The translations under genes and the position numbers were made by a program. Positions 1 through 29,144 of a stretch of DNA of 64,000 nt are shown here, in pieces (position 1 is the first letter of the stretch; the number at the start of each line of letters is the position of its first letter). Source of the stretch: a virus. Lineage: Duplodnaviria; Heunggongvirae; Uroviricota; Caudoviricetes. Under the pieces are notes generated by a model. The model did not search any database and was not told the origin of the DNA. It saw only the letters and a program-made list of their open reading frames with translations. The stretch is taken from IMG/VR virus record IMGVR_UViG_3300046542_000616. One strand, written 5' to 3'.

Positions 1-369
1 AAAAAGCTGATCAGAGAAGGGGGCTACACCGTAATCCGGCTTGCTCAGGCAGGATTACTCGACGTCATCGGTGAAATGATGGGGGAGGGATACTGGCCAG
101 AGAAGGTTCAAAAACCATCGTCGCTGGAGGATGCGCTGGATGCTCTCCAGGATCGCACATTACTGCCCTTTTATCGGGTCTATTACACAGCCTTTGTTCG
201 GCATCACCCGATTGAGAGCGTGCTGCCGCTGATGAAATCCCCGAAAATGCAGGCCTTGATGCTTGAGGTCTACCGCGACGACGAACTCATTCCTCATCTT
301 CGTACTGGATTGCTCAAAGGCGCGCCCAGGGTCAGGGGAAAATTACTGGAAAATGGATTGGGGCTCTGA
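1..369 (+). CDS. family-A paralog (DUF4116-like repeat protein with conserved ...LE.xLGL C-terminal module), 5'-truncated by window edge
   Basis: Open frame from nt 1; translation KKLIREGGYTVIRLAQAGLLDVIGEMMGEGYWP... matches the C-terminal module of the downstream paralogs; ends KLLENGLGL*. Confidence 0.7.
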   Translation, partial: KKLIREGGYTVIRLAQAGLLDVIGEMMGEGYWPEKVQKPSSLEDALDALQDRTLLPFYRVYYTAFVRHHPIESVLPLMKSPKMQALMLEVYRDDELIPHLRTGLLKGAPRVRGKLLENGLGL

Positions 370-372
370 TCG

Positions 373-4727: not shown

Positions 4728-4764
4728 TTTAATGAAGTATTGCCAATCGACAGGATGATCGACC

Positions 4765-6551: not shown

Positions 6552-7447
6552 GCGATCTCCCTGACATCTGCAGCGTGGATGATGTTTTTCACGACCTCCA
6601 ATACTCCATAATCCATACCTTTCTGGAAATACCGGCGCAGTACCAAACTGTCTCAATGGCAGCTTCCTGGATTGAGAAGACTCGGCTGTCTGGAGTGTGG
6701 CTGCATAGCGCCTTTGAGGAAGTCCCCGCCGAGTTCTGGTCAGGGGATTTCATGCTGGTGGCGGCGCAAAAGGGCTGCCCGGTGCTTAAGGTCGCTGCAC
6801 CTGAGCAGTTTCCAAATTACCGGGAAATTGCCATCGCATCACTGACCGTCAATGGTTGTCACCTCGTTGATGTCGACCCACGATTTCGTGATGATCAGAT
6901 GTTTGTGCACGTTCAGCAGACCTGGCCGGAGCACATGTTTGTCATCGCGAGGACGTGCGATTGGCTTATAGGCGCGGTGTCTGATGAGCTTCTTGATCGG
7001 TCAGCGCGCAGCGATCCGCTGTTTGCCCTGATCGCACCTCACGAACGACTTAGCGAGCCCTTACATCGCTACGTGACTCTGAGTGATCTAACCAATAGGA
7101 TGTGGGCATTCCACATCCTTCGCGAAAACGGTCACCTGCCTATGCTGGCAGCCAAGGTGAGCGAGGGGGAGTGGTTCGAGACTAAATTCACTACAATGAA
7201 AAAACCCGATTCCCTTGAGGATGCCGTTGTTGAGCTGGACAGGCTTAAGTCACTCGATGGCGGACTCGAGGTTATTTTCATGGTTTACATCATGACTTAT
7301 CCTATCGACAAAGTGGTTCCGGCCATGAAGGGCATACGCCTGAAAAAGCTTCTGCTTGAGATGTACTCGGCTGAGGCGCTGGCGCCATTCCTCAAAACTG
7401 ATGTGGAACTGAAGGGGGCGATGCTGGAAAGCGCGATAGGTCTATGA
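6548..7447 (+). CDS. family-A paralog (299 aa)
   Basis: ORF (GTG/ATG start in TGA overlap); FLEIPAQYQTVSMAASWI; C tail AMLESAIGL. Confidence 0.8.
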   Translation: MSDLPDICSVDDVFHDLQYSIIHTFLEIPAQYQTVSMAASWIEKTRLSGVWLHSAFEEVPAEFWSGDFMLVAAQKGCPVLKVAAPEQFPNYREIAIASLTVNGCHLVDVDPRFRDDQMFVHVQQTWPEHMFVIARTCDWLIGAVSDELLDRSARSDPLFALIAPHERLSEPLHRYVTLSDLTNRMWAFHILRENGHLPMLAAKVSEGEWFETKFTTMKKPDSLEDAVVELDRLKSLDGGLEVIFMVYIMTYPIDKVVPAMKGIRLKKLLLEMYSAEALAPFLKTDVELKGAMLESAIGL

Positions 7448-8346
7448 CTCTACTGACAGAATCTTCGAAGCCGTACCAGGTAAATGACGCCATGATTAAC
7501 GGGGCGGTGCGTTGTTTCACAGACCTACCTGAGTGCTTTCAGACACCCGAGAACGCGATCTTTTTTCTACAGCGCGCCCCCAAGGACGCCGACGTTAACA
7601 TCGACTTCCAATACAACACAGTGCCAAAGAATTGCCGGACGGATGCGTTTCTGATGGCCGCTGCGACCTTTGGTTGCAGGGTATTGAAGGATACCTATCC
7701 AGAAGATACGAGGTTTTACCGAGAAATAGCCACTTCGGCCATCAGCGCGAGCAGACTTAGCATAAAAGATGTTTCTCCTGCGTTTCGTGATGAAGAAATG
7801 CTGGAGCGCATAATTAAGCGATATCCAGGTGAAATTCACTCGTTGATGGGACGCATTGATTGGCTGGTAGAGGCCATGTCTGACGATCAGCTCGACAGGT
7901 GCTGTCAGTATGACTTCATGGTCGCTCTGGACGCGCCATCACACAGGATCAAGGGGGATATTGGTCGATACCTGCACCTGGACAAGCTCGATGGCCACGG
8001 GATTGTCTACGTACGGCGCCAGGGTCGTCTAGATCTGATTGCGAGCTGCCTGAAAGACAAGCCTTGGCCCTTTCCGCCATCAGCTGCGCAGATGATGCCT
8101 ACCTTTCCACGGTCAAGGGATCACCTCCTGACTCTGCTTGATAAATCAGACCCGGATACACCATACGAGACGGTGTACATGGCCTGCATGATGAATGAAC
8201 CGATTGAGCAGGTAGTGCCGTTGATGGTCAATAATCGCCTCAAAAAACTGTTGCTGGAAATGCACTCTCAAGAGGCGCTGGCGCCATACCTGAAAGCGGA
8301 CGTTGGGCTTCGCGGCCTGATGCTGGAAGAGGCGATTGGCCTATGA
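7444..8346 (+). CDS. family-A paralog (300 aa)
   Basis: ORF; FTDLPECFQTPENAIFFL; CCQYDFMVALDAPSHRIKGDIGRYL motif; C tail LMLEEAIGL. Confidence 0.8.
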   Translation: MTLLTESSKPYQVNDAMINGAVRCFTDLPECFQTPENAIFFLQRAPKDADVNIDFQYNTVPKNCRTDAFLMAAATFGCRVLKDTYPEDTRFYREIATSAISASRLSIKDVSPAFRDEEMLERIIKRYPGEIHSLMGRIDWLVEAMSDDQLDRCCQYDFMVALDAPSHRIKGDIGRYLHLDKLDGHGIVYVRRQGRLDLIASCLKDKPWPFPPSAAQMMPTFPRSRDHLLTLLDKSDPDTPYETVYMACMMNEPIEQVVPLMVNNRLKKLLLEMHSQEALAPYLKADVGLRGLMLEEAIGL

Positions 8347-9251
8347 TGAGCATTCTCAACGAACACAGCACCAGAGATGATGTGTTGAAGGTAATTCGCA
8401 AAGGTGAAGTCCGTGATTTCGCTGAAATTCCGGAATGCTTTCAAATACCTGAGATGGCGATCCGATATATCCAATATAGCTGCATATACCCCGACGTTAA
8501 TGACGAATTTAAATACAGCACAGTGCCTAAGCATTGTCGGACGGATGCCTTCCTAATGGAGGCTGCATCCATGGGCCTCAGGGTCTTGAAGGATACATTT
8601 CCAGAAGACACAGGGATTTACCGTGATCTTGCCGTTGTCACTATTGGCAGCGGATTTGGCTTTAAAGACGTACTTCCTGAGTTTCGTGATGAAGAGATGG
8701 TCGAGGGCATCATTAAGCGGTACTCAGGTAACATACATTCACTGATTGGGCGCGTTGATTGGCTGATAGAAGCCATGTCTGATGGCCAGCTCGACAGATG
8801 CTGTCATAATGAGTTCATGGTTGCCCTGGACGCGCCAGCACACCGGATCAAAGGGTGCGTGAGCCAATACCTGAAGCTGGATAAGCTGACCGGCCATGAA
8901 ATTGTCTACATTCGCCGCCATGGCCGACTTGATCTGATTGCACGGAAGCTCAAAGAAGAAAAGTGGCCTTTTCCATTATTCGGAGAGGGTGGCGAGAGAA
9001 TGCCGATAGAGCCGGAATCGATTGAAAAGTTGCTGGAAAGACTTGAAAAGTCAGACCCCGATACTCCCTACGAAACCATCTACATGGCTTGCATGATGCG
9101 CGAGCCCATCGCCCAGGTGGTGCCCTTGATGGCCAGCAACCGATTCAAGAAGCTGTTGCTCGAGATGTACTCGAAAGAAGCGCTGGCGCCTTTCTTGAAA
9201 ACGGACGCGGGCCTTCGTGGCGTGCTGCTGGAAGAGGCAATGGGACTGTGA
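8343..9251 (+). CDS. family-A paralog (302 aa)
   Basis: ORF; ~60% identical to 7444..8346; C tail VLLEEAMGL. Confidence 0.8.
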   Translation: MMSILNEHSTRDDVLKVIRKGEVRDFAEIPECFQIPEMAIRYIQYSCIYPDVNDEFKYSTVPKHCRTDAFLMEAASMGLRVLKDTFPEDTGIYRDLAVVTIGSGFGFKDVLPEFRDEEMVEGIIKRYSGNIHSLIGRVDWLIEAMSDGQLDRCCHNEFMVALDAPAHRIKGCVSQYLKLDKLTGHEIVYIRRHGRLDLIARKLKEEKWPFPLFGEGGERMPIEPESIEKLLERLEKSDPDTPYETIYMACMMREPIAQVVPLMASNRFKKLLLEMYSKEALAPFLKTDAGLRGVLLEEAMGL

Positions 9252-9253
9252 GC

Positions 9254-10144
9254 ATGTTTACTGAGAACAGCACGCAAGATGAGGTTATTGAGGCGATCCA
9301 GTCAGGCCGGATCCTTAACTTTCGTGATATCCCTGAGCATCTGTGCAATGAAAGCACAGCCATCGACTGGGTCATCGGCTCACCGTCTCCAGGAATATAT
9401 GATCTTGATCTGAAGTACGAACAAATCCCGTTAAGCTTCCGAACTGATCATTTCATGCGGCTTGCTGCAACAAATGGTTGTAACGTATTGAAGGACACAA
9501 GACCGGATCAGTGTTCGATTTATCGCGAACTGGCGCGCTTGTCTATCGCCAGAACACGTCAGGCCATGATGTATCTCGACCCATCGTTTCGCGATGACGA
9601 GATGATGAGACATATTGTTCGACACTATGGGGATGAGATGCGCTCATGGTCGACGCGCATTGATTGGCTTATCGATGCCTTGTCAGATGACCTCTTCGAC
9701 CAATGCTGCAAGGACGACTTCATGTTTGCTTTGGACGCGCCAGCACACCGCATGAAAGGTGACATTGGGCGATACCTTCACCTGGATGGGATGGATCGCC
9801 ATGAACTGATGTACATCCGAATCCGGGGGCGTCTTGACCTTATTGCGGCCAAGCTCAGGGATGAGGAATGGCCATTCCGATCACCGCTCGCAGATCTAAA
9901 AGCCCCAGAGTCAATGGATGAGTTGCTGGGATTGCTGGAAAATTCGCGTCCCGATTCCTCTGATGAAGGCGTGTACATGGCCTGCATGATGAATGAGCCC
10001 ATTCATGTTGTTGTTCCAGCTATGGCCAGCAATCGTTTTAAAAAGCTGTTGCTCGAGATGTACTCGGCTGAGGCGCTGGAGCCATTTGTGAAGGCAGATA
10101 CGGGCTTGAAGGGGGCCATGCTGGAACAGGCCATCGGCCTATGA
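9254..10144 (+). CDS. family-A paralog (296 aa)
   Basis: ATG 2 nt after upstream TGA; protein MFTENSTQDEVIEAIQSG... (ORF track's 9089 start is an upstream read-through artefact); C tail AMLEQAIGL. Confidence 0.75.
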   Translation: MFTENSTQDEVIEAIQSGRILNFRDIPEHLCNESTAIDWVIGSPSPGIYDLDLKYEQIPLSFRTDHFMRLAATNGCNVLKDTRPDQCSIYRELARLSIARTRQAMMYLDPSFRDDEMMRHIVRHYGDEMRSWSTRIDWLIDALSDDLFDQCCKDDFMFALDAPAHRMKGDIGRYLHLDGMDRHELMYIRIRGRLDLIAAKLRDEEWPFRSPLADLKAPESMDELLGLLENSRPDSSDEGVYMACMMNEPIHVVVPAMASNRFKKLLLEMYSAEALEPFVKADTGLKGAMLEQAIGL

Positions 10145-11055
10145 GTAAGCTGACTGAATTAGGTAGTCGGAAAGAGGTTTTGGCGGCAATTGATTCGGGT
10201 GGAATCAAGTTTTTCCGTGATCTCCCTGGGCAGCACAAAAACGCCGACATTGCGCTGTATTGGATTAAGAAATGCCGCGCCCACAGCTCCGAAGTGGAAA
10301 TGCAGTTGTCAGCCATCTTTTTGTATCGAGACGTGCCATTCAATTGCATGACCGACGACTTTCTAAGAATCGCGGCAGAGTGCGGGTGCCCAGTCATTTG
10401 CAGCATCAAGCCTGACCAAACGACGATATATCGAGACCTGGTTTACCTTTGCATTGAATCCAGTCATTCATGGATAAAATACGTTTATCCTGCCTATGGC
10501 GACGAAGAATTGCTGGAGTACATTTTCAGTAGGTATTCTTCAAATTGCTGGATATGGGCCTACGACAATAACTGGGTCATGGAAGTCATGTCTGACGACC
10601 TTTTCGACAGGTGTTGCCAGGCCCGTTTCCTTTTTGCCTTAGAAGCGCCAGCGCATCGAATCAAAGGCGACATCGGGCGCTTTCTGGATGTGAGCGAATG
10701 TAATCCAGAAGTGATTTATCGCCTGCGCCACAAGCGTAGGCTTGACCTCATTACCGCAAAGATAAGCACAGTAGACGACCTATGGCCCCTTCTGGATGCA
10801 TACCGAGTGATCACTCCCAGATCGGTGTCGGATATGCTTGAGCGTCTGGAGAATGCCGAGCCAGGCTCCATCGACGAAACGATCTATATGTCGATCCTGC
10901 TGCTTGAACGCATTGAGAAAGTGGTTGAGATGATGGCGAGCAGCCGGCTCAAGCGGCTTTTGCTGGAGATGTACCCGTTTGAGGCGCTGGAGCCTTTCGT
11001 CAAATCTGATATAGGCCTTAAAGGCGTCATGCTGGAAGAGGCAATGGGCTTATGA
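10141..11055 (+). CDS. family-A paralog (304 aa)
   Basis: ORF; FRDLPGQHKNADIALYWI; CCQARFLFALEAPAHRIKGDIGRFL; C tail VMLEEAMGL; ATGA overlaps. Confidence 0.8.
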   Translation: MSKLTELGSRKEVLAAIDSGGIKFFRDLPGQHKNADIALYWIKKCRAHSSEVEMQLSAIFLYRDVPFNCMTDDFLRIAAECGCPVICSIKPDQTTIYRDLVYLCIESSHSWIKYVYPAYGDEELLEYIFSRYSSNCWIWAYDNNWVMEVMSDDLFDRCCQARFLFALEAPAHRIKGDIGRFLDVSECNPEVIYRLRHKRRLDLITAKISTVDDLWPLLDAYRVITPRSVSDMLERLENAEPGSIDETIYMSILLLERIEKVVEMMASSRLKRLLLEMYPFEALEPFVKSDIGLKGVMLEEAMGL

Positions 11056-11540
11056 GTCAGCCACTGCCGAAGCCAGAAACCATCGCACAAGTGCTGGAAA
11101 TGCTTGATGAGGGCCAGATTGAGCATTTCTGCGACATTCCGGAAAATTACCGGTTTGGAATGATTGCTCGGGATTGGCTTAGGCAAAAATACCTGGTCAA
11201 CACCGCGAACGGGGAGGTGTACTACGCCCAGGTGCCTGAAAGCAGTCTGGACGACAGATTCATACGGATGGTCTCATGTTATCTCGGCGCGCCCACTGGG
11301 CCATCTACACTTTTTGATGCTGTAGGGCTTATTAAACAAGCCGAAAGTGGCGGTACTGATGAGGCTCTAGGCATGGTCTATGCAATGACCTACCCGCTCG
11401 ACCAGGTGGTTACCGCGATGACAGGAAATCGCCTGAAAAAACTGCTGCTGGAGATGTACACGGCAGGGGAGCTTCGCCCCTACCTGATGCAGGACACTGA
11501 GCTTAAGGGCGTCATCCTTGAAGCTGCTTTAGGAATTTGA
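11052..11540 (+). CDS. family-A minimal member (162 aa: N-terminal motif fused directly to C-terminal module)
   Basis: ORF; FCDIPENYRFGMIARDWL then ...VYAMTYPLDQVVTAMTGNRLKKLLLEMYTAGELRPYL...VILEAALGI*; lacks the central repeat region. Confidence 0.7.
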   Translation: MSQPLPKPETIAQVLEMLDEGQIEHFCDIPENYRFGMIARDWLRQKYLVNTANGEVYYAQVPESSLDDRFIRMVSCYLGAPTGPSTLFDAVGLIKQAESGGTDEALGMVYAMTYPLDQVVTAMTGNRLKKLLLEMYTAGELRPYLMQDTELKGVILEAALGI

Positions 11541-11606
11541 CCTTGATTTTTTTCAATTAAGGCTACTTTGACGACGCCACCAGACCTCTAACTGCGGACG
11601 GACTTC

Positions 11607-12479
11607 ATGCAGGACACCCGGATTTACCTCACTGCCGCTGAAGTCGACGAAGGCATCCTTCTTGGGCATTTCCCAAGATTTTCCGACATTCCCGAGCAGT
11701 TTTTGGATGACAACCTGGCCATCGAATGGCTGAAGTTCGCCGGCAGCCCGATTGAAAGGCATTATGCCCAGGTTCCACAGGCGTTGAGGTCTAGCGCCTT
11801 CCTCAAATTCGCGGCGTTCAACGGCTGCAATGTCCTCAAAGACACCAGTCCGGCGCAGACCGAGTGCTACCGAGAACTGGTGCATCTTTGCTTGATGAAT
11901 GATTGCCAGGCGCTTCGTGACGTTCACCCCAAGTTTCGTACCGTCCAAACTCTGAAAGTGCTTAAAACCAGGTTCAATGCCTTGGATTTCCTCCCGCTGA
12001 TCCAGGACATTGAATGGGTTGGCCCGGCCATGTCCGATGAGCTGGTCAGTGAGCTATGTGATGACGACTTTTCATTTGTCTTGCAAGCGCCTGCTAGCCT
12101 GTTGCGCAAAGATCTTGTCGACTACGTGGATTTGCGTCGACCTAAAGTGATCACGTCGCTGCGCATCAACGGTCGCCTGGATCTGCTGGCTGCCAAACTG
12201 GCCAAAGAGGGATGGCCAAAAAACTACGACCTGACCAGGCCAGCCTCTTTGGAGGACGTTGTGGCCAGGCTTCCAGGATGCACTCCCCGGTACTATCCAG
12301 AAACGCTGTACCTGGCATTTGTCATGACCTATCCCATCGACCAGGTCGTGCCGGCCATGAACACCGTGCACCTCAAAAAGCTCCTGCTGGAAATGTATTC
12401 AATTGATGAGCTTCGCCCGCACATGAAGCAGGACAATGGCCTGAAGGCCGTGCTTCTCGATGACGCCCTGGGCCTGTAG
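11607..12479 (+). CDS. family-A paralog (290 aa)
   Basis: ORF; FSDIPEQFLDDNLAIEWL; C tail AVLLDDALGL. Confidence 0.8.
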   Translation: MQDTRIYLTAAEVDEGILLGHFPRFSDIPEQFLDDNLAIEWLKFAGSPIERHYAQVPQALRSSAFLKFAAFNGCNVLKDTSPAQTECYRELVHLCLMNDCQALRDVHPKFRTVQTLKVLKTRFNALDFLPLIQDIEWVGPAMSDELVSELCDDDFSFVLQAPASLLRKDLVDYVDLRRPKVITSLRINGRLDLLAAKLAKEGWPKNYDLTRPASLEDVVARLPGCTPRYYPETLYLAFVMTYPIDQVVPAMNTVHLKKLLLEMYSIDELRPHMKQDNGLKAVLLDDALGL

Positions 12480-12494
12480 GAAAGGAATCTGCTG

Positions 12495-13403
12495 ATGAAC
12501 ACTAAAGATGACGTGCTGAACGAGCTGCACACTGGCCAGGGCATTCTGCTGAGCTTCGACAGCATTCCAGAACATCTAAGGGACAGCGAAGTCGCGACAG
12601 TCTGGATGAGCATGCGGTATCTCAGGAGGGGCCTTCCTGTACATCTGTCCCTGCCAAAGATCCCACGCCGGCTGATCAATGATGCTTTGCTGCACAAGGC
12701 CATCGAACTGGATCATGACGCTCTCAAAAGCATCAAGCCGCATATGGCTGTCGACTACCCGTCTATGGTTCTGCAGTCAGTCGGATGCTCTGTGTATGCC
12801 TACCGAGACATTGATCCCAGCTACCGCACAGAGGCGATGCTGGACGCCATCATTGTGCATGCGAACCATCACCTTGAAATCCATACCTATGACGAACACA
12901 CACAATGGATCAGGGACTTGATGACCCAGGAGCGGATCGACAAGGTGTTGGCCACCAATTTCATGTTCGCCCTGCGATATGGTCTACATAAAATGGAGTG
13001 GGGCGCGCTCAAGGGCTTGCTGAAAAAGAGTTATCCGTTCTATCAGTTTCTCGACCTGCACACCGCATTGCACTACGTCTCGAGGCTGATAGCCGAAGGG
13101 GAATGGCCTGAGTGTGAAGACGAAGACTCAACGCCTGTAAAACCTAAGACCTTGGATGAGGGTGTCTTCCGGATGATGATCGGCGAGCGGGTTCTCCCTG
13201 CGAGAATAACCCGTCTGGACAGCTTCTACTTGTACAAGGCCTACGTCATGACCTACCCCATCGCGGATGTCGTGGCGACGATGCAGGCACCGGAAAGGCG
13301 CAAGGTACTCTTGGAGATGTACAGCACGGACGAGTTGCGTCCTCATGCGCACCTCAACAGGAACCTGCGTGGCGCGTTGCTGGAAGAAGCGATTGGTTTG
13401 TAG
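12495..13403 (+). CDS. family-A paralog (302 aa), last gene of first sub-array
   Basis: ORF; FDSIPEHLRDSEVATVWM; C tail ALLEEAIGL; followed by an AT-rich palindromic spacer. Confidence 0.8.
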   Translation: MNTKDDVLNELHTGQGILLSFDSIPEHLRDSEVATVWMSMRYLRRGLPVHLSLPKIPRRLINDALLHKAIELDHDALKSIKPHMAVDYPSMVLQSVGCSVYAYRDIDPSYRTEAMLDAIIVHANHHLEIHTYDEHTQWIRDLMTQERIDKVLATNFMFALRYGLHKMEWGALKGLLKKSYPFYQFLDLHTALHYVSRLIAEGEWPECEDEDSTPVKPKTLDEGVFRMMIGERVLPARITRLDSFYLYKAYVMTYPIADVVATMQAPERRKVLLEMYSTDELRPHAHLNRNLRGALLEEAIGL

Positions 13404-13464
13404 GCAAAAGAAAAGGCTTTAAAAGCTTTTTGAGCGGCGGCCATCCTTGGCCCATGCGCAACGG

Positions 13465-14118
13465 TTAAATCATCACAATTTCGCTTTCGTAGTGCACCAG
13501 CTCGTGGAAGCGTTTGGCTTTGGTTGGGCCGATGCCATTGATCTGGGTAATCATTTCCGGTGTGGCGTTAACGACTCTGGCAATCGAGCCAAAGTGCTCA
13601 AACAGTTTTTTGGAGTTTTCCGGGCCGATGCCTGGGAAGCTGCCAATCACGTACTGAGCAGAATCGGCATTGGCCTTGGGTTTTTTCGGGTGCAGGTTAA
13701 TTTCATAACCCAGCCCTTCCTGCAGATGGCGGGCCATGTGCGCCAGCATGAGCAGACTTTCATTCTTGTCGGCCACGAAGATCACTTGCACGTTGGCTAT
13801 GGCCATCAGCCAAGACAAGGCGCCACGGATGGACTCCTTGGTCATTTTGGAGCGAGTTTTGTAGACGTCCCCCTCAATCAAGACCATGGGACGGACGTAG
13901 TCCATCTTCATTTTTGGGACTTGGTTGAAGAGCCTACCGTCCATGATTGAATTGACAAAGTCCTGAGCTTCCTTTCGCTCAACCACAACCTCCTGGCTCA
14001 GGACGTAGTCGCCACAGGGCAGCTCGCCAACGAGGACTTCGACGTTTTCCATGGCCTGGAGCGCTTTAATCATGCCGGATGTAGTTTCGCGACTGTCTGC
14101 AAAGATTTTGACCATCAT
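13465..14118 (-). CDS. ERCC4-domain (XPF/Mus81/Hef-type) nuclease with C-terminal (HhH)2 domain, short archaeal-XPF-like architecture
   Basis: KIFADSRE..., LPCGDYVLS, VVVERKEAQDFVNSIMDGRLFNQ, MVLIEGD match ERCC4 catalytic motifs (GDx..ERK..D); C-term GIGPENSKKLFEHFGSI...INGIGPTKAKRF = two HhH. Confidence 0.75.
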   Translation of the reverse strand: MMVKIFADSRETTSGMIKALQAMENVEVLVGELPCGDYVLSQEVVVERKEAQDFVNSIMDGRLFNQVPKMKMDYVRPMVLIEGDVYKTRSKMTKESIRGALSWLMAIANVQVIFVADKNESLLMLAHMARHLQEGLGYEINLHPKKPKANADSAQYVIGSFPGIGPENSKKLFEHFGSIARVVNATPEMITQINGIGPTKAKRFHELVHYESEIVMI

Positions 14119-14210
14119 GGTCTCCTCGAAGGTTAGTCAGGGTAGTGTGGGAGGGGAATTACCTCTGGTCAATTTGCACTAGCGAGAAAGGCCTTCCTTG
14201 GCTTCATATT

Positions 14211-14591
14211 TCAGATCGCAAGGCCGTCATCAGCCGTATGGCGCGCCGTGGGCTTCAAAGGCATCCCTGTCGCTTTGTGCAGCACTTCCTTGCGCTCGCC
14301 GAAGCGATCATAGGCGGTAATGCTGAACTGGCCTTTAGCAATTGCATCAATGACCTCTGCGTATTGGCTTGGATTGACCTCGGCGATGGTGATGCCTTCA
14401 ACAATGGCCAGGGCCGGTCTGCCATTGCTGTCTTTGCTCCAGGTGTAGCGGTGGCCAGGCCACATCTGACCGATCACGTCGCCGGGACGGGCGTCCTTGT
14501 CCTTGATGTAGTCGTGCCAGGCCGTCAAAACAGCTTCTGGCTCCGAGGCCAGGGTGGGGTTTTTGCTCATTGCGGGCTCCTTAAGGTTCAT
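14211..14591 (-). CDS. hypothetical protein (119-126 aa), co-oriented with the ERCC4 nuclease gene
   Basis: ORF with protein-like composition; start may be the internal Met (14570); no family recognised. Confidence 0.45.
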   Translation of the reverse strand: MNLKEPAMSKNPTLASEPEAVLTAWHDYIKDKDARPGDVIGQMWPGHRYTWSKDSNGRPALAIVEGITIAEVNPSQYAEVIDAIAKGQFSITAYDRFGERKEVLHKATGMPLKPTARHTADDGLAI

Positions 14592-14657
14592 GCCCTCATC
14601 TTAGATTTTGAGCCTGGGGCTCTGCAATCAAGCTGTCTGAGGGGCCTGGCTCTGGGC

Positions 14658-14687
14658 GGTGTACTCGGCGCCAGCGCATCCGTCATA
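14658..14687 (+). promoter_or_regulatory. conserved intergenic motif GGTGTACTCGGCGCCAGCGCATCCGTCATA (copy 1), ~70 nt upstream of gene 14759
   Basis: Near-identical 29-30 bp element repeated at 15651..15680 upstream of the next gene; ends in CATAAT (-10-like). Confidence 0.4.
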
Positions 14688-14758
14688 ATTGAGGTTCAGC
14701 AACGCACTCAATGGCTCACCGCTTTTGAGGCCAGAGGTTAGCCAGAGGGAAGTGGGAG

Positions 14759-15631
14759 ATGAAGAGGAAAGAGTTTTTGATGGCGATGCAGGATGATCCT
14801 GACTCATACGAGGAGTTTTCGAGCATTCCAGAAGCGTTTCGAGATTCCGAAATGGCAGCCAGTTGGATGACGACGCTGAGCAAACAGGATGTCAGCCCCT
14901 CCCCACACACCCTCATGCAAATCCCTGCGGAGCTACAAAATCAGAAGGTATTGCTGACAGCGGTGGGGCTCAACTCAATGGCTCTCAAACTGATAAAGCC
15001 TGAACAGGCTGATGATTATCTGGCCATTGTGCTGGTGGCTGTCCACAAAGCCTCGTACGCATTCAAGTTGATGGACGAGAGCTACAAAACCGAAGCCGTC
15101 CTTGACGCATTCATTGAAGACCAGGTGTTCTTTGACCTAGAAACCGGTCACATGGACTGGGTTCTGCCCATGCTGAATCAAGAGCGCATCGACAAGATAT
15201 CCGCCTACTCATTATGGTTTGCCATGAGTGTCGGCCTCGAGAATGTCTCTTGGGACGTGGTGAAAGAGCAACTCAAGAAAACACCGGATAACTACTCATA
15301 CATGGATAAGCTAGGTCAGCTTGGTTTCTTGTCGAAAATGCTTAAAGAGGATGAGTGGCCAAAAAGTGAAGGGAATCTGGTTTACAAGCCATTCAAGGGC
15401 CTGGCCGATGGGGTCAGCCGCTTCATGCGATCCGATAAAGAATCAGCCCTTCATTACCTGCAAAAAGCTTATGTATTGACCTTCCCGGTGCCGGAGGTGA
15501 TCGCGGCCATGAAAACCCCGGCGCGCCGCGAAGTGCTGCTTGGGCTTTATCCGGTGGATGTGTTGCGTGAGCATGCCCATGGCGACCGGAATCTACGCGG
15601 CAAGATCCTGGAGCAAGACATTGGACTTTGA
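14759..15631 (+). CDS. family-A paralog (290 aa), first gene of second sub-array
   Basis: ORF with GGGAG RBS; FSSIPEAFRDSEMAASWM; C tail KILEQDIGL. Confidence 0.8.
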   Translation: MKRKEFLMAMQDDPDSYEEFSSIPEAFRDSEMAASWMTTLSKQDVSPSPHTLMQIPAELQNQKVLLTAVGLNSMALKLIKPEQADDYLAIVLVAVHKASYAFKLMDESYKTEAVLDAFIEDQVFFDLETGHMDWVLPMLNQERIDKISAYSLWFAMSVGLENVSWDVVKEQLKKTPDNYSYMDKLGQLGFLSKMLKEDEWPKSEGNLVYKPFKGLADGVSRFMRSDKESALHYLQKAYVLTFPVPEVIAAMKTPARREVLLGLYPVDVLREHAHGDRNLRGKILEQDIGL

Positions 15632-15650
15632 CGGCAAAAGGGCTCTTCCC

Positions 15651-15680
15651 CGTGTACTCAGCGCCAGCGCATCCTTCATA
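15651..15680 (+). promoter_or_regulatory. conserved intergenic motif CGTGTACTCAGCGCCAGCGCATCCTTCATA (copy 2), ~65 nt upstream of gene 15748
   Basis: 27/29 identical to 14659..14687; ends CATACT (-10-like). Confidence 0.4.
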
Positions 15681-15747
15681 CTAGGCGAAATGACACGCAG
15701 GTGATGGCGCTTCTGAGCTGACCTTGCAGTGCGACAAGGGGCGGGTG

Positions 15748-16632
15748 ATGACGGCAGTGCAAAAACGGTTCGTTTACGAAGTGCAGACCGAGGCATCTCG
15801 CTTCAAAGACTTCGCGTCGATACCTCAGGAATGCCTGAATACCGCCAATATCATGCTGTGGATGGAGTCGGTCTTTAAAAAAACGGGTACTAATCCCTCC
15901 AAGCTCCTCCCCCAGATTCCGAAGCAGTACATCACCGATGAGCTACTGAAAAGAGCCATCGATTTGAGCTCTTCCTCTCTCGGGGAAATAAAGCCATCGG
16001 ACACCGATGATTATCTCGGGTTGGTGCTGCACGCCCTCAAGTCTTTCAATTACCTAGCATGGTGCTTCGTCGATGAGAGCTATAGGACGCAAGCCACTCT
16101 GGATGTTCTCATTGAAAACGAAGTGAGGATAGGCCTTGAAGACCCGAGCACGGAATGGATCAAGCCGCTGCTCAATCAGCAGCGTATCGACCGGATCTCC
16201 GCGTACAACTACGAGTTTGCCTTGGATGTTGGCTTGGACAAGGTGTCTTGGGAGATTGTGAAGACGCTCCTCGCCAAGCAGCCCGGTGGCTACAAAGACC
16301 TGGACTTGCAAGGAGACCTGCATTACCTGAGCCGAATGCTCGCGGAAAATGTGTGGCCGGAGCCCATAAGGGGTTTCCAGTACCGACCCCTGGAGAATCT
16401 GGCGGATGGCGTATCGCGTTTTATGAAGACAGAGATCAACAAGCCGCCAACCTACTATCTGTTTAAGGCCTACGTCATGTCTTTCCCGGTGGATCAGGTT
16501 ATTGCGGCCATGAAGACGCCAGTCCGGCGCAAGGTGTTGCTAGAGCTGTACCCAACAGAGGTGTTGCGTAAGCACTCTGGCGGCGACCGCGAGCTGCGCG
16601 GCAGACTCCTTGAAGATGAGATAGGCCTCTAA
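15748..16632 (+). CDS. family-A paralog (~294 aa)
   Basis: ATG at 15748 with AAGGGG RBS (ORF track's 15724 is a TTG extension); FASIPQECLNTANIMLWM; ~55% identical to 14759..15631; C tail RLLEDEIGL. Confidence 0.75.
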   Translation: MTAVQKRFVYEVQTEASRFKDFASIPQECLNTANIMLWMESVFKKTGTNPSKLLPQIPKQYITDELLKRAIDLSSSSLGEIKPSDTDDYLGLVLHALKSFNYLAWCFVDESYRTQATLDVLIENEVRIGLEDPSTEWIKPLLNQQRIDRISAYNYEFALDVGLDKVSWEIVKTLLAKQPGGYKDLDLQGDLHYLSRMLAENVWPEPIRGFQYRPLENLADGVSRFMKTEINKPPTYYLFKAYVMSFPVDQVIAAMKTPVRRKVLLELYPTEVLRKHSGGDRELRGRLLEDEIGL

Positions 16633-17504
16633 TGAACCACGAATTCCACGACATCCACGACGTCAACGTCGCCATCAGTAACAACCTGGTTCACAGGTTT
16701 GCTGACATCCCAAAGCACTTGCAAAGCGCTGAGGTGGCCCAGGAGTGGTGCATCTCCATGCACTCGGTGAAAAAGAAGCCGCTAGAAACCTGCATGGCTG
16801 AGGTTCCGGCTGAATTCTGGAGCCCTAAATTTTTACTAACCCTCACTAATTTAGGGTGCAACGTCCTGCAGTATATCGATCCAGAGGATAAATTCTGCCA
16901 GGAACTTGGGTTCACCAGTGTGAGGATCAACTACAAGCACCTTGCCTCTCTCGACGAAAAATACCGGTCTCAGTTTGCTGAGCATCTGGCCTGGAATAAC
17001 CTGCGAGAGATGCACCTGATTGCAAAAGCCTTTCCGTGGATCAGAGATCATCTGACAGATGAAGCGTCCAGACATTGCTGCGCCAATATTGATTTTGCTA
17101 TGGGTTACAAGGTTCTTCCTGATGGCATTGGCAAGCAGATCCTATTAAATGGGGATGGCTTTGAAATAATCCGGGCCGTTGGCCGGCTAGACGTTCTGGT
17201 AGGCCAGATTGGGGTAGGTGAATGGCCAGAGAGGCTATCTGGCTTCGGCTATCCTGGCGGAAGACCTAACACCCTTGAAGACGGTATTTATTGTGTTTCA
17301 GGGACATCGGAAAATAATGCCCGGCAAGCGCTGTACATGGCCTATGTCATGACTTATCGAATGGATGACGTAATCCCTTTGATGTGCGAACGCAAACTGC
17401 ACAAGCTGGTGCTGGAGATGTACTCGGACGAGGCGCTGGCGCCATTTATGAAAAAATACAGGGATCTTCGTGGGGCCGTACTTGAAGATTCGTTGGGCCT
17501 GTGA
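16632..17504 (+). CDS. family-A paralog (290 aa)
   Basis: ORF (TAATG overlap); MNHEFHDIHDVNVAISNNLVHRFADIPKHLQSAEVAQEW; C tail AVLEDSLGL. Confidence 0.8.
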   Translation: MNHEFHDIHDVNVAISNNLVHRFADIPKHLQSAEVAQEWCISMHSVKKKPLETCMAEVPAEFWSPKFLLTLTNLGCNVLQYIDPEDKFCQELGFTSVRINYKHLASLDEKYRSQFAEHLAWNNLREMHLIAKAFPWIRDHLTDEASRHCCANIDFAMGYKVLPDGIGKQILLNGDGFEIIRAVGRLDVLVGQIGVGEWPERLSGFGYPGGRPNTLEDGIYCVSGTSENNARQALYMAYVMTYRMDDVIPLMCERKLHKLVLEMYSDEALAPFMKKYRDLRGAVLEDSLGL

Positions 17505-18379
17505 TGATAGAACAATTCCACGATATCCATGACGTCAACGTTGCCATCAGCAACAACCTGGTTCACAGCTTTGCGGAGATTCCAAAGCACCTGCAGAGCG
17601 GTGAGGTCGCCGAGGAATGGTTCGTCTCCATGATCCAGGTCAAAAAGAAACCGCTTGAGGATTGCCTCAGTGAAGTGCCGCCTAAATTCTGGACGGCACA
17701 ATTCATGACGACTGTCGCCAACTCAGGGTGCAATATTCTTCGTTATATCGATCCAGGCAGGGATCCTATGCACCTCAATATTGGCATGATGTGCGCAAGA
17801 GTTAACTACAAAAATCTTGTCTCCCTCGACCCGAAATATAGGGGTGAATTTGCTGAGCATCTAGGCCAGAACAATGCTCGAGAAATCGATGTGATTGCTA
17901 GAGATTTCCCATGGGTCAGAGATCATATGCCAGCTAGTGTCGTTCACTTTTGCTGCCTTAATATTGATTTTGCCATGGGTTACAAGGTGCTTCCTGATGG
18001 TGTTGGAAAGGAGATCATGACCAATGGCTATGGCTTTAACAAAATCCGGGCCCATGGCCGGCTAGACGTTTTGGCAGAACAGATTGCGGAAGGTGAGTGG
18101 CCGACGATCCTTCCTAAATCCGAACTTCCTGGCCCGAAACCTAGATCCCTGGAAAATGGCATAGGTTTTATTTCCCAGTGCATGTCTGGCAGTGATCGAG
18201 AAAGCCTCCACATGGCCTACCTGATGACCTACCCGATGGATCAGGTAATTCCACTGTTGTGCGAGGATAAGAAGGCCAGGCTGGTTCTGGAGATGTACTC
18301 CAAGGAAGCGCTTGCGCCCTACGTAAAGAAATACAGGGTGCTGCGCGGCGTGGTACTTGAGGAGGCGCTGGGCTTGTGA
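17501..18379 (+). CDS. family-A paralog (292 aa)
   Basis: ORF; ~70% identical N-terminus to 16632..17504 (FHDIHDVNVAISNNLVHSFAEIPKHLQSGEVAEEW); C tail VVLEEALGL. Confidence 0.8.
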   Translation: MMIEQFHDIHDVNVAISNNLVHSFAEIPKHLQSGEVAEEWFVSMIQVKKKPLEDCLSEVPPKFWTAQFMTTVANSGCNILRYIDPGRDPMHLNIGMMCARVNYKNLVSLDPKYRGEFAEHLGQNNAREIDVIARDFPWVRDHMPASVVHFCCLNIDFAMGYKVLPDGVGKEIMTNGYGFNKIRAHGRLDVLAEQIAEGEWPTILPKSELPGPKPRSLENGIGFISQCMSGSDRESLHMAYLMTYPMDQVIPLLCEDKKARLVLEMYSKEALAPYVKKYRVLRGVVLEEALGL

Positions 18380-19260
18380 TGAGAGAACAATTCCGAGATG
18401 CCCAAGACATCGATATTGCGATCAGCAATGGCTTGAGTTTCCATTTCGATGATATTCCAAAGCACCTGCAGAGCGATGAAATGGCCCTGGAGTGGTTCCT
18501 GGCCATGATGGCAGTACCTGGTGAGAGGCCTCTGGATTTGTTCCTCCAAGTACCTTCTGAGCTTTGGTCTCAGGCTTTCCTGGTTGCAGTGTCCGGAAGC
18601 GACTGCAACATGCTGGCCCATAAAGACCTAGACCTCGGAAAGAACAGCCTTTATCAAAGCGTGGGCCTCAACTGCATCAGGAAGAACTACAAACACCTCT
18701 CATCTCTTGATCCGAAATACCGAACGATGGTGGCTGAGCATCTGGCCTGGAATTTCGATTATAAGGTGCATCTGGTCGACAGGGAGTTTCCGTGGTTCAG
18801 GGATCACCTGGATCCAGGTGAGCTTGAAAGGTGCTGCACCAATATTCATTTTGCGCTGGATACTAAAGACTTACCGGAGAGCATGCGCAGGCGCATTCTG
18901 ATCAATGGCGAAAATTTTCACATCATCCGGGCCCGTGGCCGGCTAGGTCTTTTGTCCGAGCAAATTGCCGAGGGTGAGTGGCCAAAAACCCTTACGTCGC
19001 TGGACTTTGCGGGCCCAATGCCAATATCCCTGGAGGATGGCATTCACAAGATTGTGGAGAGCGCGGCACGCGTTGATCAGCAGGCGCTGTACATGGCAGC
19101 GGTCATGACCTACCCGATGGACGAGGCTGTGTCCATGATGTGTGAGCGTAGGCTGCACAAGCTGGTGCTGGAGATGTACTCCCAGGAGGCGCTTGCGCCA
19201 TACTTGAAAAAATACCGGGATTTGCGCGGAGTCGTACTCGAGGATGCGCTGGGGCTTTGA
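18376..19260 (+). CDS. family-A paralog (294 aa)
   Basis: ORF; FDDIPKHLQSDEMALEWF; C tail VVLEDALGL; overlaps. Confidence 0.8.
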   Translation: MMREQFRDAQDIDIAISNGLSFHFDDIPKHLQSDEMALEWFLAMMAVPGERPLDLFLQVPSELWSQAFLVAVSGSDCNMLAHKDLDLGKNSLYQSVGLNCIRKNYKHLSSLDPKYRTMVAEHLAWNFDYKVHLVDREFPWFRDHLDPGELERCCTNIHFALDTKDLPESMRRRILINGENFHIIRARGRLGLLSEQIAEGEWPKTLTSLDFAGPMPISLEDGIHKIVESAARVDQQALYMAAVMTYPMDEAVSMMCERRLHKLVLEMYSQEALAPYLKKYRDLRGVVLEDALGL

Positions 19261-20141
19261 ACATGAAATCAGACACGGGCGCTAGGTTGGATCGGAACAG
19301 CGATTACTCGCTCAAAGCCCATCATTTTGCTGACATTCCAGTTGAGTTTCAGACTCAGGAGATCGCTAACGAGTGGTTCCTGGAAAAGCAGAACAAAAAC
19401 ACGGAGCCTTTGTCTGATTGCTTCCGTCAGATCCCTCTGCATCTGCGCTCCAAAGAGCTTGTCCGATGGGCAGCCGATGATGGCATCAATGCCATTGAGG
19501 GATTGGACGTACAGCACCCGGATTACCTCGATCTCGCCCAGATCTGCGTGCTGAAAAACCACCAGCATATCGATTCAGTACACCCTGATATGCGGCAGGC
19601 ACTGCTGCCGATTTTTTGTGCCATTCACATCACCAAAATTCACGAAGTCGACAAAGAATTTGAGTGGTTCAGATCTGCGCTCTCCCCGGAGTGCCTGAGA
19701 ATATGCAGTCAAAACATCGACTTTTTCCTGAACACGCCAGAAGAGCAAATGACGTCGGACGCTCGCCAGTACACCATGACCCAGAATTTTTGTGCCTGGT
19801 TAACGTGGGGTCTCAGGAAGCGAGGGAAAATGCATCTCTTGGCGGAGCAGATTGCTGCGGGTGATTGGCCAAAAGATAATTACGTCAGAAATATCGAAAA
19901 GCCCATATCCCTGCTGAATGCACGCTATAAGCTGACCGCTTCTGAGCCTGGAAAAGAACATGAGACGCTGTACATGGCTTACCTCATGTCCAAGCCGATG
20001 GATCAGGTCGTGCCCCTGATGAAAGGCCGCAGGCTGCAGAAGCTGCTGTTCGAGATGTACTCGACAGAAGCGCTTGCTCCATACTTGAAAAACAGTAGGG
20101 AACTTCGTGGCATTTTGCTTGAAGACTCCCTAGGCCTCTGA
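19257..20141 (+). CDS. family-A paralog (294 aa)
   Basis: ORF; FADIPVEFQTQEIANEWF; C tail ILLEDSLGL. Confidence 0.8.
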   Translation: MNMKSDTGARLDRNSDYSLKAHHFADIPVEFQTQEIANEWFLEKQNKNTEPLSDCFRQIPLHLRSKELVRWAADDGINAIEGLDVQHPDYLDLAQICVLKNHQHIDSVHPDMRQALLPIFCAIHITKIHEVDKEFEWFRSALSPECLRICSQNIDFFLNTPEEQMTSDARQYTMTQNFCAWLTWGLRKRGKMHLLAEQIAAGDWPKDNYVRNIEKPISLLNARYKLTASEPGKEHETLYMAYLMSKPMDQVVPLMKGRRLQKLLFEMYSTEALAPYLKNSRELRGILLEDSLGL

Positions 20142-20176
20142 CCGTTTTGGCAGGGCAGGCAGACGGGGCAGGGTAG

Positions 20177-21073
20177 ATGAGCTCAACACCGAATGAAATC
20201 ACCGCTCGCATGATGGATGAGGTCGGCTACGGCAACCTCAACATTGGGCGTTTCTGCGAAATCCCAGAGGAACAGCGCACGCCAGAGAATGCCAAGCTTT
20301 GGCTGCTGCACAAGATCTCCAGAGACAGCGAGCCACTGAACGCTTGCTATCAGGAGATCCCTCTGGAGCTGCGCTCCTTTGGGGTGATGATGGCCGCAGC
20401 CAAAAATGGCCTCATTAACATTCTTGATGGGCTGGATGCGAATCAGACCCCTAGCTACGTCATGCTTGCCGAGGCCGTCACTCGCAGGAACTACCGGCAC
20501 ATTACCTTTGTTGATCCGGCTTATCGGTGGCAAGTGCTTCCTGACTACTGCCTGACCCACATCGAGTCGATTGACAAAATTTCCAAGGAAATTGCCTGGT
20601 TTCGCTCAGAGCTGTCGCCAGCCGTTTTTGAAAAATGCTGCATGAATATCGATTTTGCGCTGGACTCTCCCATCGAAATGCTTCCTGAACACCTACTTCA
20701 GGAAATGGTGGTCAAGAACTACAGTGCCTACCCGGCGTTCAGGTCGCGTGGTCTGTTCCATGTCATGGCGGCTCGCATTGCGGCAGGTGATTGGCCTCCT
20801 GAGTCATCCGACTACGCCTTTAGCGCCGAGAAACCGCGTTCGCTCGAGGCTGGCATCCTGCTGCTCGGTGAACAAGAGCCAGGCTCTGATCACGAAACCT
20901 TATACATGGCCTATGCCATGACCTATCCCATTGAGCAGGTGGTGCCCCTGATGCGCGACAGGACGCTTAAGGCGTTGTTGATCGAGATGTACACCAAGGA
21001 GGCACTAAAGCCCTTCATAAGGGCTGACAGAGAGCTTCGAGGTGTAATCCTTGAAGACTCGATGGGGCTCTGA
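20177..21073 (+). CDS. family-A paralog (298 aa)
   Basis: ORF; FCEIPEEQRTPENAKLWL; C tail VILEDSMGL. Confidence 0.8.
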   Translation: MSSTPNEITARMMDEVGYGNLNIGRFCEIPEEQRTPENAKLWLLHKISRDSEPLNACYQEIPLELRSFGVMMAAAKNGLINILDGLDANQTPSYVMLAEAVTRRNYRHITFVDPAYRWQVLPDYCLTHIESIDKISKEIAWFRSELSPAVFEKCCMNIDFALDSPIEMLPEHLLQEMVVKNYSAYPAFRSRGLFHVMAARIAAGDWPPESSDYAFSAEKPRSLEAGILLLGEQEPGSDHETLYMAYAMTYPIEQVVPLMRDRTLKALLIEMYTKEALKPFIRADRELRGVILEDSMGL

Positions 21074-21075
21074 TC

Positions 21076-29092: not shown

Positions 29093-29144
29093 AGCTTCCG
29101 CGACCAAAGAATAGGCTTGGGCGCCAGCACTGGAAAGTTGAAAA

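What the first reader, a model, noticed from the sequence alone, without database searches (positions are those of the whole stretch)
13404..14758. An archaeal/eukaryotic-type ERCC4 (XPF/Mus81) + HhH2 nuclease sits on the opposite strand between the two halves of the array
The 217-aa protein at 13465..14118 has the ERCC4 catalytic signature (GDY...VVERKEAQDF...DGRLFNQ) and two C-terminal helix-hairpin-helix motifs. This is the compact architecture of short archaeal XPF, and such structure-specific endonucleases are uncommon in bacteria. Its position is exactly at the break in a 33-gene tandem-repeat array, next to a small unknown gene (14211..14591). This raises the possibility that it processes recombination intermediates (flaps or forks) arising among the near-identical array repeats, or drives cassette shuffling. 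It could equally be an unrelated insertion.
Basis: partly seen in the sequence, partly recalled or inferred. Interest (0 to 1): 0.7.

Follow-up and report, generated by a model that had tools for sequence, protein, structure and literature searches.

The report
Megaplasmid XPF-type nuclease lodged in gene array
The gene is a real, apparently active XPF/Hef-type DNA-structure nuclease, but it belongs to a family carried by many giant proteobacterial plasmids that have no such array, so its place inside this array looks like an old insertion and not a working partnership.

Summary
ORF 13465..14118(-) encodes a 217-aa ERCC4 + (HhH)2 protein with every catalytic residue intact. It sits antisense in the only break of a 33-gene tandem paralog array, next to a small unknown gene.

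The functional link to the array is not supported:
- The array paralogs are not near-identical. They average 28% aa identity, reach at most 71% nt identity, and the longest shared exact run is 29 bp.
- The nuclease belongs to a bacterial clade found on 157 PLSDB plasmids. Every one listed is at least 138 kb, and they include pMPPla107, pQBR103 and IncP-2-like megaplasmids. None of 85 homolog loci has an array gene or the small neighbour within 10 kb.
- In a diverged relative (a 304-kb contig) the nuclease lies at the same a15|a16 junction and is 98% identical. The array around it has gained and lost genes elsewhere, and the small neighbour is absent.
- Paralog a15, left of the break, clusters with a16, a17 and a24 on the right. 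This suggests insertion into an existing array.

Best reading: a conserved, uncharacterised megaplasmid backbone nuclease that cuts flaps and forks. It is a new member of a known kind, of moderate to low interest.

The parts
13465..14118 (-). ERCC4-(HhH)2 nuclease gene (217 aa; likelier start is the ATG at 14115, giving 216 aa)
   Evidence: ORF. Pfam ERCC4 6e-28 plus HHH_5/HHH_2. Full-length match to Aeropyrum pernix XPF 2bgw/2bhn at 1e-28. AF2 pLDDT 91. dN/dS 0.05 against the 304-kb-contig ortholog.
13735..14097 (-). ERCC4 nuclease domain (aa 8-128) with D8/E11, G36-D37-Y38, E47-R48-K49 and D53
   Evidence: Pfam envelope. Invariant columns. Superposes on the Pyrococcus Hef nuclease domain 1j22 at rmsd 1.4 A over 132 columns, TM 0.93.
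13483..13641 (-). Tandem helix-hairpin-helix (HhH)2 domain (aa 160-212; hairpins PGIGP 162-166 and GIGP 195-198)
   Evidence: Pfam HHH_5 1e-8, HHH_2 6e-8, HHH 7e-5. Aligned to the HhH2 of Ape XPF.
14144..14172 (-). Promoter-like TTGACC-N17-CACACT just upstream of the nuclease gene, retained in the relative L101 (inferred, weak -10)
   Evidence: Read. The consensus scan did not call it, so this is inference only.
14211..14591 (-). Small unknown gene (126-aa ORF; probable real start 14570, 119 aa), a lineage-specific neighbour
   Evidence: No Pfam, NCBIfam or PADLOC hit. Six homologs, on ~1-Mb Pseudomonas plasmids, none next to an ERCC4 gene. Absent from the relative L101.
14165..14650 (.). Approximate ~490-bp indel carrying the small gene; present here, absent in the 304-kb-contig relative
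   Evidence: Pairwise alignment of window against L101 and intergenic sequences.
13404..13464 (.). 61-bp convergent spacer between the stop codons of the nuclease gene and array gene a15, with palindrome 13416-13435
   Evidence: Only 65% identical to L101, unlike the adjacent CDS.
12495..13403 (+). Array paralog a15, left flank of the break
   Evidence: Its ortholog flanks the nuclease gene in L101 (65% aa). Clusters with a16/a17/a24 (bootstrap 99%).
14759..15631 (+). Array paralog a16, right flank of the break
   Evidence: Its ortholog flanks the nuclease gene in L101 (62% aa).

Best explanation
The gene encodes a functional XPF/Hef-type structure-specific endonuclease. By analogy with archaeal short XPF and the Hef nuclease domain it should work as a homodimer, with each subunit holding a duplex arm through its (HhH)2 domain. 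The GDY...ERK...D metal site would then cut the strand at a 3' flap, a fork or a nicked junction. It is one member of a bacterial clade that is a recurrent, solitary, strongly conserved gene of very large proteobacterial plasmids (the pMPPla107, pQBR103 and IncP-2-like families). The window comes from such a ~1-Mb replicon. Its most likely job is general upkeep of the giant replicon's own DNA: stalled or collapsed forks, and flap or recombination intermediates. It is not dedicated to the array. Its place inside the array reflects an old insertion between sister paralogs a15 and a16, made before this lineage split from the 304-kb-contig lineage. The small neighbouring gene is a later, unrelated indel. 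What is shown: family, fold, catalytic residues, purifying selection, distribution, lack of array linkage, and the fixed position. What is inferred: dimer formation, substrates, and the cellular role.
For: Family and fold:
- Pfam ERCC4 6e-28 plus HhH.
- PDB sequence match to Ape XPF 1e-28 and Pfu Hef nuclease 1e-21.
- AF2 pLDDT 91, with Foldseek best hits 2bgw (2.5e-18) and 1j22 (rmsd 1.4 A).
- Catalytic D37, E47, R48, K49 and D53 are invariant.
- dN/dS is 0.05.

Distribution:
- 157 PLSDB plasmids match, 137 of them Pseudomonas. Every listed record is 138-972 kb.
- The closest named relatives are pMPPla107 (60%), pMPCFBP13716 and pPLMAXa.
- Bacterial proteins form their own cluster apart from archaeal Hef/XPF in an NJ tree.
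- GC and GC3 are native to the replicon.

No link to the array:
- 85 homolog loci (1.06 Mb) contain no array-family gene and no small-neighbour homolog.
- Neighbourhoods share nothing but the nuclease gene itself.
- Array paralogs are at most 71% nt identical.

Old, fixed insertion:
- The junction and strand are the same in L101/L104.
- a15 groups with a16/a17/a24 at 99% bootstrap.
- Gene gains and losses between the two arrays lie away from the junction.
Against: - No biochemical or genetic data exist for any member of the bacterial clade. I found none in the paper searches.
- The cellular role is inferred from archaeal and eukaryotic relatives.
- The gene has stayed inside the array in two diverged lineages, which is also what a functional link would predict.
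- The CDS is a sharply bounded island of 92-100% nt identity (dS 0.16). Its flanks show dS 0.4-2.1. I could not decide whether that reflects a recent allelic exchange of the nuclease gene or unusually fast array evolution.
- The location of the nuclease gene in a third array-bearing lineage (the 1.13-Mb contig) could not be determined.
Confidence: 0.7

Rival explanations
1. Array-linked nuclease. The enzyme acts on branched DNA formed during unequal exchange among array paralogs. It thereby promotes or resolves array expansion, contraction or shuffling, and is kept inside the array for that reason.
For: The gene is kept at the same intra-array junction in two lineages whose array proteins are only 45-91% identical. 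The arrays differ by several gene gains and losses. Array genes are far more diverged than the nuclease gene.
Against: - The paralogs share at most 71% nt identity and a single 29-bp exact run, so homologous exchange has almost no substrate.
- Contigs from three samples are identical to the window across the break (11.3-14.4 kb at 100%, 4.8 kb with one mismatch), with no structural variation.
- Gains and losses are not concentrated at the junction.
- The family is present on 157 plasmids and in 85 loci without any array.
- The other arrays or array segments seen have no nuclease gene: the first ~19 genes of the 1.13-Mb-contig array, and the second array in this window.
Confidence: 0.07
2. Selfish or recently exchanged gene. 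The nuclease CDS moves or is replaced between related megaplasmids as a discrete cassette. This would explain why it is much more similar between lineages than anything around it, and why its neighbours differ in every plasmid family.
For: The CDS is 96% nt identical (dS 0.16) with sharp drops to 45-65% at both ends. None of 8 downstream window proteins has a cluster mate of at least 90% identity on the 304-kb contig. The gene is solitary in unrelated neighbourhoods.
Against: - The junction is identical in both lineages, so there is no sign of independent insertion.
- No flanking repeats, integrase or transposase were found.
- The 24 nt differences are spread evenly along the CDS.
- dN/dS of 0.05 fits ordinary strong purifying selection.
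- XPF-family enzymes recognise DNA structure and not sequence (established knowledge).
Confidence: 0.1
3. Defence or anti-defence effector. The nuclease attacks incoming phage or plasmid DNA structures, or protects the plasmid during conjugative entry.
For: It is plasmid-borne and sits among many small unknown genes in IncP-2-like plasmids. Sir2 genes lie next to the lone array-family gene on the FeN3W plasmid, ~15 kb from the ERCC4 remnant.
Against: There is no PADLOC hit for the nuclease, its neighbour or the array protein. No conserved partner gene was seen. The gene is solitary, unlike typical multi-gene defence systems.
Confidence: 0.08

Closest known systems
Crenarchaeal short XPF (Aeropyrum pernix XPF, PDB 2bgw/2bhn)
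   Same: Same two-domain architecture and length (ERCC4 nuclease + (HhH)2, ~215 aa). Full-length alignment at E=1e-28, and best Foldseek hit. Same catalytic motif.
   Different: Only 27-28% identical. It scores 129 bits against the NCBIfam archaeal Xpf equivalog, whose cutoff is 300. There is no PIP-like C-terminal tail. The host is a bacterial plasmid, where no PCNA exists.
Euryarchaeal Hef, nuclease + HhH2 C-terminal part (Pyrococcus furiosus, PDB 1j22/1x2i)
   Same: Best profile match: NCBIfam Hef positions 571-777 of 781, E=1e-54. The nuclease domain superposes at 1.4 A with 37% identity.
   Different: It lacks the whole N-terminal helicase, and its 186 bits fall below the cutoff of 610. 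In the pMPPla107 subclade a different, unrelated P-loop ATPase domain is fused N-terminally. The window protein has no such fusion.
'ERCC4 domain-containing protein' of Pseudomonas megaplasmids (pMPPla107, pQBR103, IncP-2/pBT2436-like, pTTS12)
   Same: Same clade: 36-60% identity over at least 95% of the length, on 157 plasmids. A solitary gene on replicons of 138-972 kb.
   Different: None of those sits in a paralog array. Some carry an N-terminal ATPase fusion or a C-terminal xSLF[SA]D tail, both absent here. I found no experimental work on any of them.
Eukaryotic XPF-ERCC1 / Mus81-Eme1 / FANCM-FAAP24
   Same: Same nuclease + HhH2 module.
   Different: Those are obligate heterodimers, often with one inactive subunit, and carry large extra domains. 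Sequence identity is only 17-25%.

Membership tests
XPF/Mus81/Hef (ERCC4) nuclease superfamily | ERCC4 domain recognised by a curated profile above threshold | tested here: met
   Pfam PF02732, 98 bits against a cutoff of 24, E=6e-28, covering profile positions 2-140 of 140.
XPF/Mus81/Hef (ERCC4) nuclease superfamily | Catalytic signature GDX(n)ERKX3D plus the N-terminal acidic residue | tested here: met
   G36-D37-Y38, E47-R48-K49 and D53 are present. D37, E47, R48, K49 and D53 are invariant in 26 homologs. D8, R10 and E11 are invariant in the 12 closest.
XPF/Mus81/Hef (ERCC4) nuclease superfamily | C-terminal tandem helix-hairpin-helix (HhH)2 domain | tested here: met
   HHH_5 1e-8 and HHH_2 6e-8. 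Hairpins at 162-166 and 195-198 align to Ape XPF.
XPF/Mus81/Hef (ERCC4) nuclease superfamily | Restriction-endonuclease-like alpha/beta fold of the nuclease domain | tested here: met
   AF2 pLDDT 91. Foldseek gives 1j22 at rmsd 1.4 A and TM 0.93, and 2bgw at E=2.5e-18.
XPF/Mus81/Hef (ERCC4) nuclease superfamily | Dimerisation and Mg2+-dependent cleavage of 3' flaps, forks or nicked junctions | not testable with these tools
   Needs biochemistry. Only a monomer model could be made.
Crenarchaeal short XPF (NCBIfam NF040956 equivalog) | Score above the equivalog cutoff, and a C-terminal PCNA-interacting motif | tested here: not met
   129 bits against a cutoff of 300. The C-terminus ...HELVHYESEIVMI has no PIP-like motif.
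Euryarchaeal Hef (NCBIfam NF010337 equivalog) | N-terminal SF2 helicase fused to the nuclease, with a score above cutoff | tested here: not met
   Only profile positions 571-777 of 781 are matched, at 186 bits against a cutoff of 610. The protein is 217 aa and has no helicase.
Proteobacterial megaplasmid ERCC4-HhH2 clade | Full-length similarity to the plasmid proteins, and clustering with them and not with archaeal sequences | tested here: met
   60% identity to pMPPla107 and 36-44% to the others over at least 95% of the length. The NJ tree places it with P0002, pMPPla107 and pMPCFBP13716 (no bootstrap was run on that tree).
Known anti-phage defence systems (PADLOC-DB) | Match to any defence-system protein model | tested here: not met
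   No hit at E<=0.1 for the nuclease, the small neighbour or the array proteins.

The most novel reading that the evidence does not exclude
In this megaplasmid lineage the XPF-type nuclease has been kept inside the array because it acts on array DNA. It would cut branched intermediates of illegitimate or short-homology exchange among diverged paralogs, and so drive the rapid birth-and-death turnover seen between related arrays. That would make it a dedicated 'array-remodelling' nuclease.
Probability: 0.07. Interest if true: 0.65.

Novelty: new member of a known kind. Interest (0 to 1): 0.3.

Why it matters
XPF/Hef-type nucleases are textbook archaeal and eukaryotic enzymes. Here they turn out to be a recurrent, strongly conserved and experimentally untouched gene of very large proteobacterial plasmids, including the clinically important IncP-2-like resistance megaplasmids. 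If the enzyme helps giant plasmids cope with fork stalling or recombination intermediates, it would be a maintenance factor worth testing and possibly a marker for such replicons. For this window specifically, the result removes an attractive but unsupported link between the nuclease and the paralog array. The array's fast divergence and its unknown all-alpha repeat protein are the more unusual features.

Tried and rejected
- Phage origin. There is no DNA match in the phage collection, and only archaeal-virus ERCC4 hits at 22-36% identity. Rejected.
- Conserved operon partner. The small neighbour has six homologs, none next to an ERCC4 gene. No ERCC4 locus holds it. Rejected.
- Shared synteny between ERCC4 neighbourhoods of pMPPla107, the 876-kb contig and the P. 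silesiensis plasmid. Nothing is shared but the gene itself.
- Mobile-element signatures around 13250-14900. Only weak chance-level repeats were found, with no RNA family and no tRNA.
- Recent foreign acquisition. GC and GC3 lie within the replicon's range.
- Defence system. No PADLOC hit.
- Literature on ERCC4 or XPF in megaplasmids. Nothing was found.
- Metagenome scan for closer contexts. That collection does not hold the source samples, and the best hit was 61%.
- Locating the nuclease gene on the 1.13-Mb array-bearing contig. It was not found among cluster members.
- Backbone divergence between the window and the 304-kb contig. No shared non-array gene could be fetched. Indirectly, 8 downstream proteins have no mate of at least 90% identity there.
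- What the array protein is. The model is confident but there is no PDB fold match and no Pfam family.

Full report

Yes. The ORF 13465..14118 on the minus strand encodes 217 aa. GAGGAG lies 3 nt before the first ATG and 6 nt before the second, so the second ATG at 14115 is the likelier start.

Profile and structure evidence:
- Pfam scores ERCC4 at 98 bits (cutoff 24, E=6e-28) over aa 8-128. It also finds HHH_5, HHH_2 and HHH over aa 160-212.
- The protein aligns end to end with Aeropyrum pernix XPF (2bgw/2bhn, E=1e-28) and with the Pyrococcus Hef nuclease domain (1j22, E=1e-21).
- In 26 homologs D37 (of GDY), E47, R48, K49, D53 and Q66 are invariant. D8, R10 and E11 are invariant in the 12 closest.
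- An AlphaFold2 model has mean pLDDT 91. Foldseek returns Ape XPF first (E=2.5e-18). The nuclease domain superposes on 1j22 at 1.4 A with TM 0.93.

The array is also real. There are 32 complete ORFs plus one cut by the window start, all on the plus strand from 1 to 30059. Every member hits every other by BLASTP. The only antisense interruption is 13404..14758.

One descriptive point fails: the repeats are not near-identical. Protein identity is 19-63% (mean 28%). The best DNA pair is 71% identical, and the longest exact run shared by two copies is 29 bp.

**2. Where does the window come from?**

- The identical protein occurs on JGI metagenome contigs of up to 1.28 Mb.
- The closest named relatives are on Pseudomonas megaplasmids: pMPCFBP13716 (971 kb), pPLMAXa (949 kb) and pMPPla107 (972 kb, 60% identity).
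- The small neighbour's homologs are on the 1.17-Mb P. silesiensis plasmid and on a 1.06-Mb P. serbica contig.
- The window holds bacterial genes (DUF808, TnpB, an R2K ATP-grasp protein, an AAA ATPase) among many ORFans, and no tRNA.

This profile matches the pMPPla107-like family, whose gene content is described as largely hypothetical with some housekeeping-like DNA-maintenance genes (PMC6482414). There is no phage match.

**3. What is the nuclease family?**

A tblastn search against PLSDB finds 157 plasmids, 137 of them Pseudomonas. Every record listed is 138-972 kb. They include:
- pQBR103;
- the IncP-2/pBT2436-like resistance megaplasmids;
- pTTS12 of P. putida S12;
- Methylibium PM1, Polaromonas JS666 and Variovorax plasmids.

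RefSeq already labels these proteins 'ERCC4 domain-containing protein'.

A rough NJ tree, without bootstrap, places the bacterial plasmid proteins in one cluster. That cluster is separate from the Hef-like archaeal group and from the crenarchaeal XPF group. The window protein sits with P0002, pMPPla107 and pMPCFBP13716. Its GC (0.517) and GC3 (0.674) lie within the range of the surrounding genes. So this is an established bacterial plasmid lineage of an archaeal-type enzyme, and not a recent import.

By curated equivalogs it is neither Hef (186 bits, cutoff 610, no helicase) nor archaeal Xpf (129 bits, cutoff 300). PADLOC gives nothing. I found no paper that mentions this gene on megaplasmids.

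**4. Is it linked to the array?**

Four tests say no.

(a) Substrate. With at most 71% nt identity and a single 29-bp exact run, the paralogs offer almost nothing for homologous recombination.

(b) Co-occurrence. I fetched 85 loci with ERCC4 homologs, 1.06 Mb in total, with up to 10 kb of flank each. None contains an array-family gene or a homolog of the small neighbour. The neighbourhoods in pMPPla107, a P. aeruginosa plasmid, pQBR103 and an IncP-2-like plasmid are unrelated to each other. The 876-kb contig (68% homolog) and pMPPla107 share nothing but the nuclease gene itself within 8-10 kb.

(c) Comparative position. A relative on a 304-kb contig (L101, and the Logan copy L104) carries the nuclease antisense between the orthologs of a16 and a15. 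This is the same junction as in the window. The two arrays are broadly collinear but differ by several gains and losses:
- a11-a13 and extra a09/a10 and a18/a19 copies are present here;
- extra a14-, a24- and a25-like copies are present there;
- that array also holds an IS200-type transposase plus a DAHP-synthase insertion elsewhere.

None of these events is at the nuclease junction. Contigs from three samples are also identical to the window across the break (100% over 11.3-14.4 kb, and one mismatch in 4.8 kb).

(d) Paralog phylogeny. a15, left of the break, clusters with a16, a17 and a24, which lie to the right. Bootstrap support is 99%. The other blocks (a01-05, a07-12+14, a18-23, a25-32) are each positional clades. 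So the break lies inside a subfamily block. That is expected if the nuclease gene was inserted into an existing array.

Other array stretches have no nuclease. These are the first ~19 genes of the orthologous array on a 1.13-Mb contig and a second, unrelated array in this window.

**5. The small neighbour**

The 126-aa ORF probably starts at M8, giving 119 aa. It has no family assignment. Its six homologs lie in a different neighbourhood with no ERCC4 gene nearby. In L101 it is simply absent.

The alignment shows a ~490-bp indel at about 14165..14650. The 50 nt just upstream of the nuclease start are retained in both lineages, including a TTGACC-N17-CACACT element. I infer that the nuclease has its own weak promoter and that the small gene is a later, unrelated indel. 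The consensus promoter scan did not call this element.

**6. An unexplained feature**

Between the window and L101 the nuclease CDS is 96% nt and 98% aa identical (dS 0.16, dN/dS 0.05). Identity drops to 45-65% immediately outside both ends. The positional array orthologs have dS 0.37-2.1 and 59-91% aa identity.

None of eight proteins encoded downstream in the window has a cluster mate of at least 90% identity on the 304-kb contig. Non-array genes next to the array start, in another pair of relatives, show dS 0.6-1.1.

Two explanations remain. Either the nuclease gene is exceptionally constrained or was recently exchanged between plasmids, or the array region evolves unusually fast. I could not obtain backbone genes for this exact pair, so I cannot decide between them.

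**7. Mechanism, stated with its basis**

Shown:
- an intact ERCC4 active site and (HhH)2 domain;
- strong purifying selection;
- solitary occurrence on giant plasmids.

Inferred from established knowledge of archaeal XPF and Hef:
- a homodimer that binds two duplex arms through its HhH2 domains;
- cleavage of the strand at 3' flaps, forks or nicked junctions.

Inferred role: upkeep of the megaplasmid's own replication and recombination intermediates. This fits the observation that these plasmids carry their own Mfd, Rep, DnaB and RecA (PMC6482414).

Two variations in relatives point to replisome- or ATPase-coupled action, though neither is present in the window protein. One is an in-frame N-terminal P-loop ATPase in the pMPPla107 subclade. 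The other is a conserved C-terminal xSLF[SA]D tail in IncP-2/pQBR103-type proteins.

**8. Verdict**

The identity of the enzyme is right, and 'unrelated insertion' is the best reading. The array-processing hypothesis is not supported. This is a new member of a known kind, with interest about 0.3. The residual novel reading, an array-remodelling nuclease, gets about 7%.

Noticed in passing
window 1..30059 (+), e.g. 373..1245: The array protein gives a very confident all-alpha helical-repeat model (pLDDT 93). It has no PDB fold match better than E=0.18 and no Pfam family. Homologs occur only on a few ~0.3-1.3-Mb metagenome contigs, plus one single-copy gene on the Pseudomonas sp. FeN3W plasmid. 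The array extends beyond the window start.
   Followed up: partly
window 12495..15631 vs L101 8956..11625: The nuclease CDS is a sharply bounded island of 92-100% nt identity (dS 0.16). It is flanked by array genes with dS 0.4-2.1 and intergenic identity of 45-65%. The cause is unresolved: a recent exchange of the nuclease gene, or hyper-divergent array genes.
   Followed up: partly
window 46899..56130 (-): A second, unrelated tandem array of about 15 paralogs (130-213 aa, 30-49% identical) lies on the minus strand. A TnpB/Cas12f-like ORF at 56676..57980(-) follows it.
   Followed up: partly
L036 6819..8660 (pMPPla107); also L059, L053, L006: In the pMPPla107 subclade the ERCC4-HhH2 module is fused in frame to a ~395-aa N-terminal P-loop ATPase (weak PF01637). 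The layout resembles Hef but uses an unrelated ATPase.
   Followed up: partly
C-termini of P0026, P0033, P0035, P0037, P0039, P0042, P0043, P0045, P0058, P0060; L037, L039: IncP-2/PA83-type homologs end in a conserved tail motif xSLF[SA]D (for example GQSLFSDG, PSLFADPP). It loosely resembles a beta-clamp-binding motif and is absent from the window protein.
   Followed up: no
L105 (CP136011.1 765000..805000): On the 910-kb FeN3W plasmid a lone array-family gene (record 791332..792210) sits beside two Sir2-family genes. An unannotated ERCC4 remnant (aa 2-68) lies ~15 kb away at 775983..776182.
   Followed up: partly
L046 10950..12248: In the 304-kb-contig relative the orthologous array is interrupted at a different place, by an IS200-type Y1 transposase and a DAHP-synthase gene. 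Arrays therefore accumulate unrelated insertions.
   Followed up: no
window 33062..33985 (+): A DUF808 protein (Pfam E=6.5e-107), which JGI names 'predicted DNA repair protein MutK', lies 3 kb downstream of the array.
   Followed up: no
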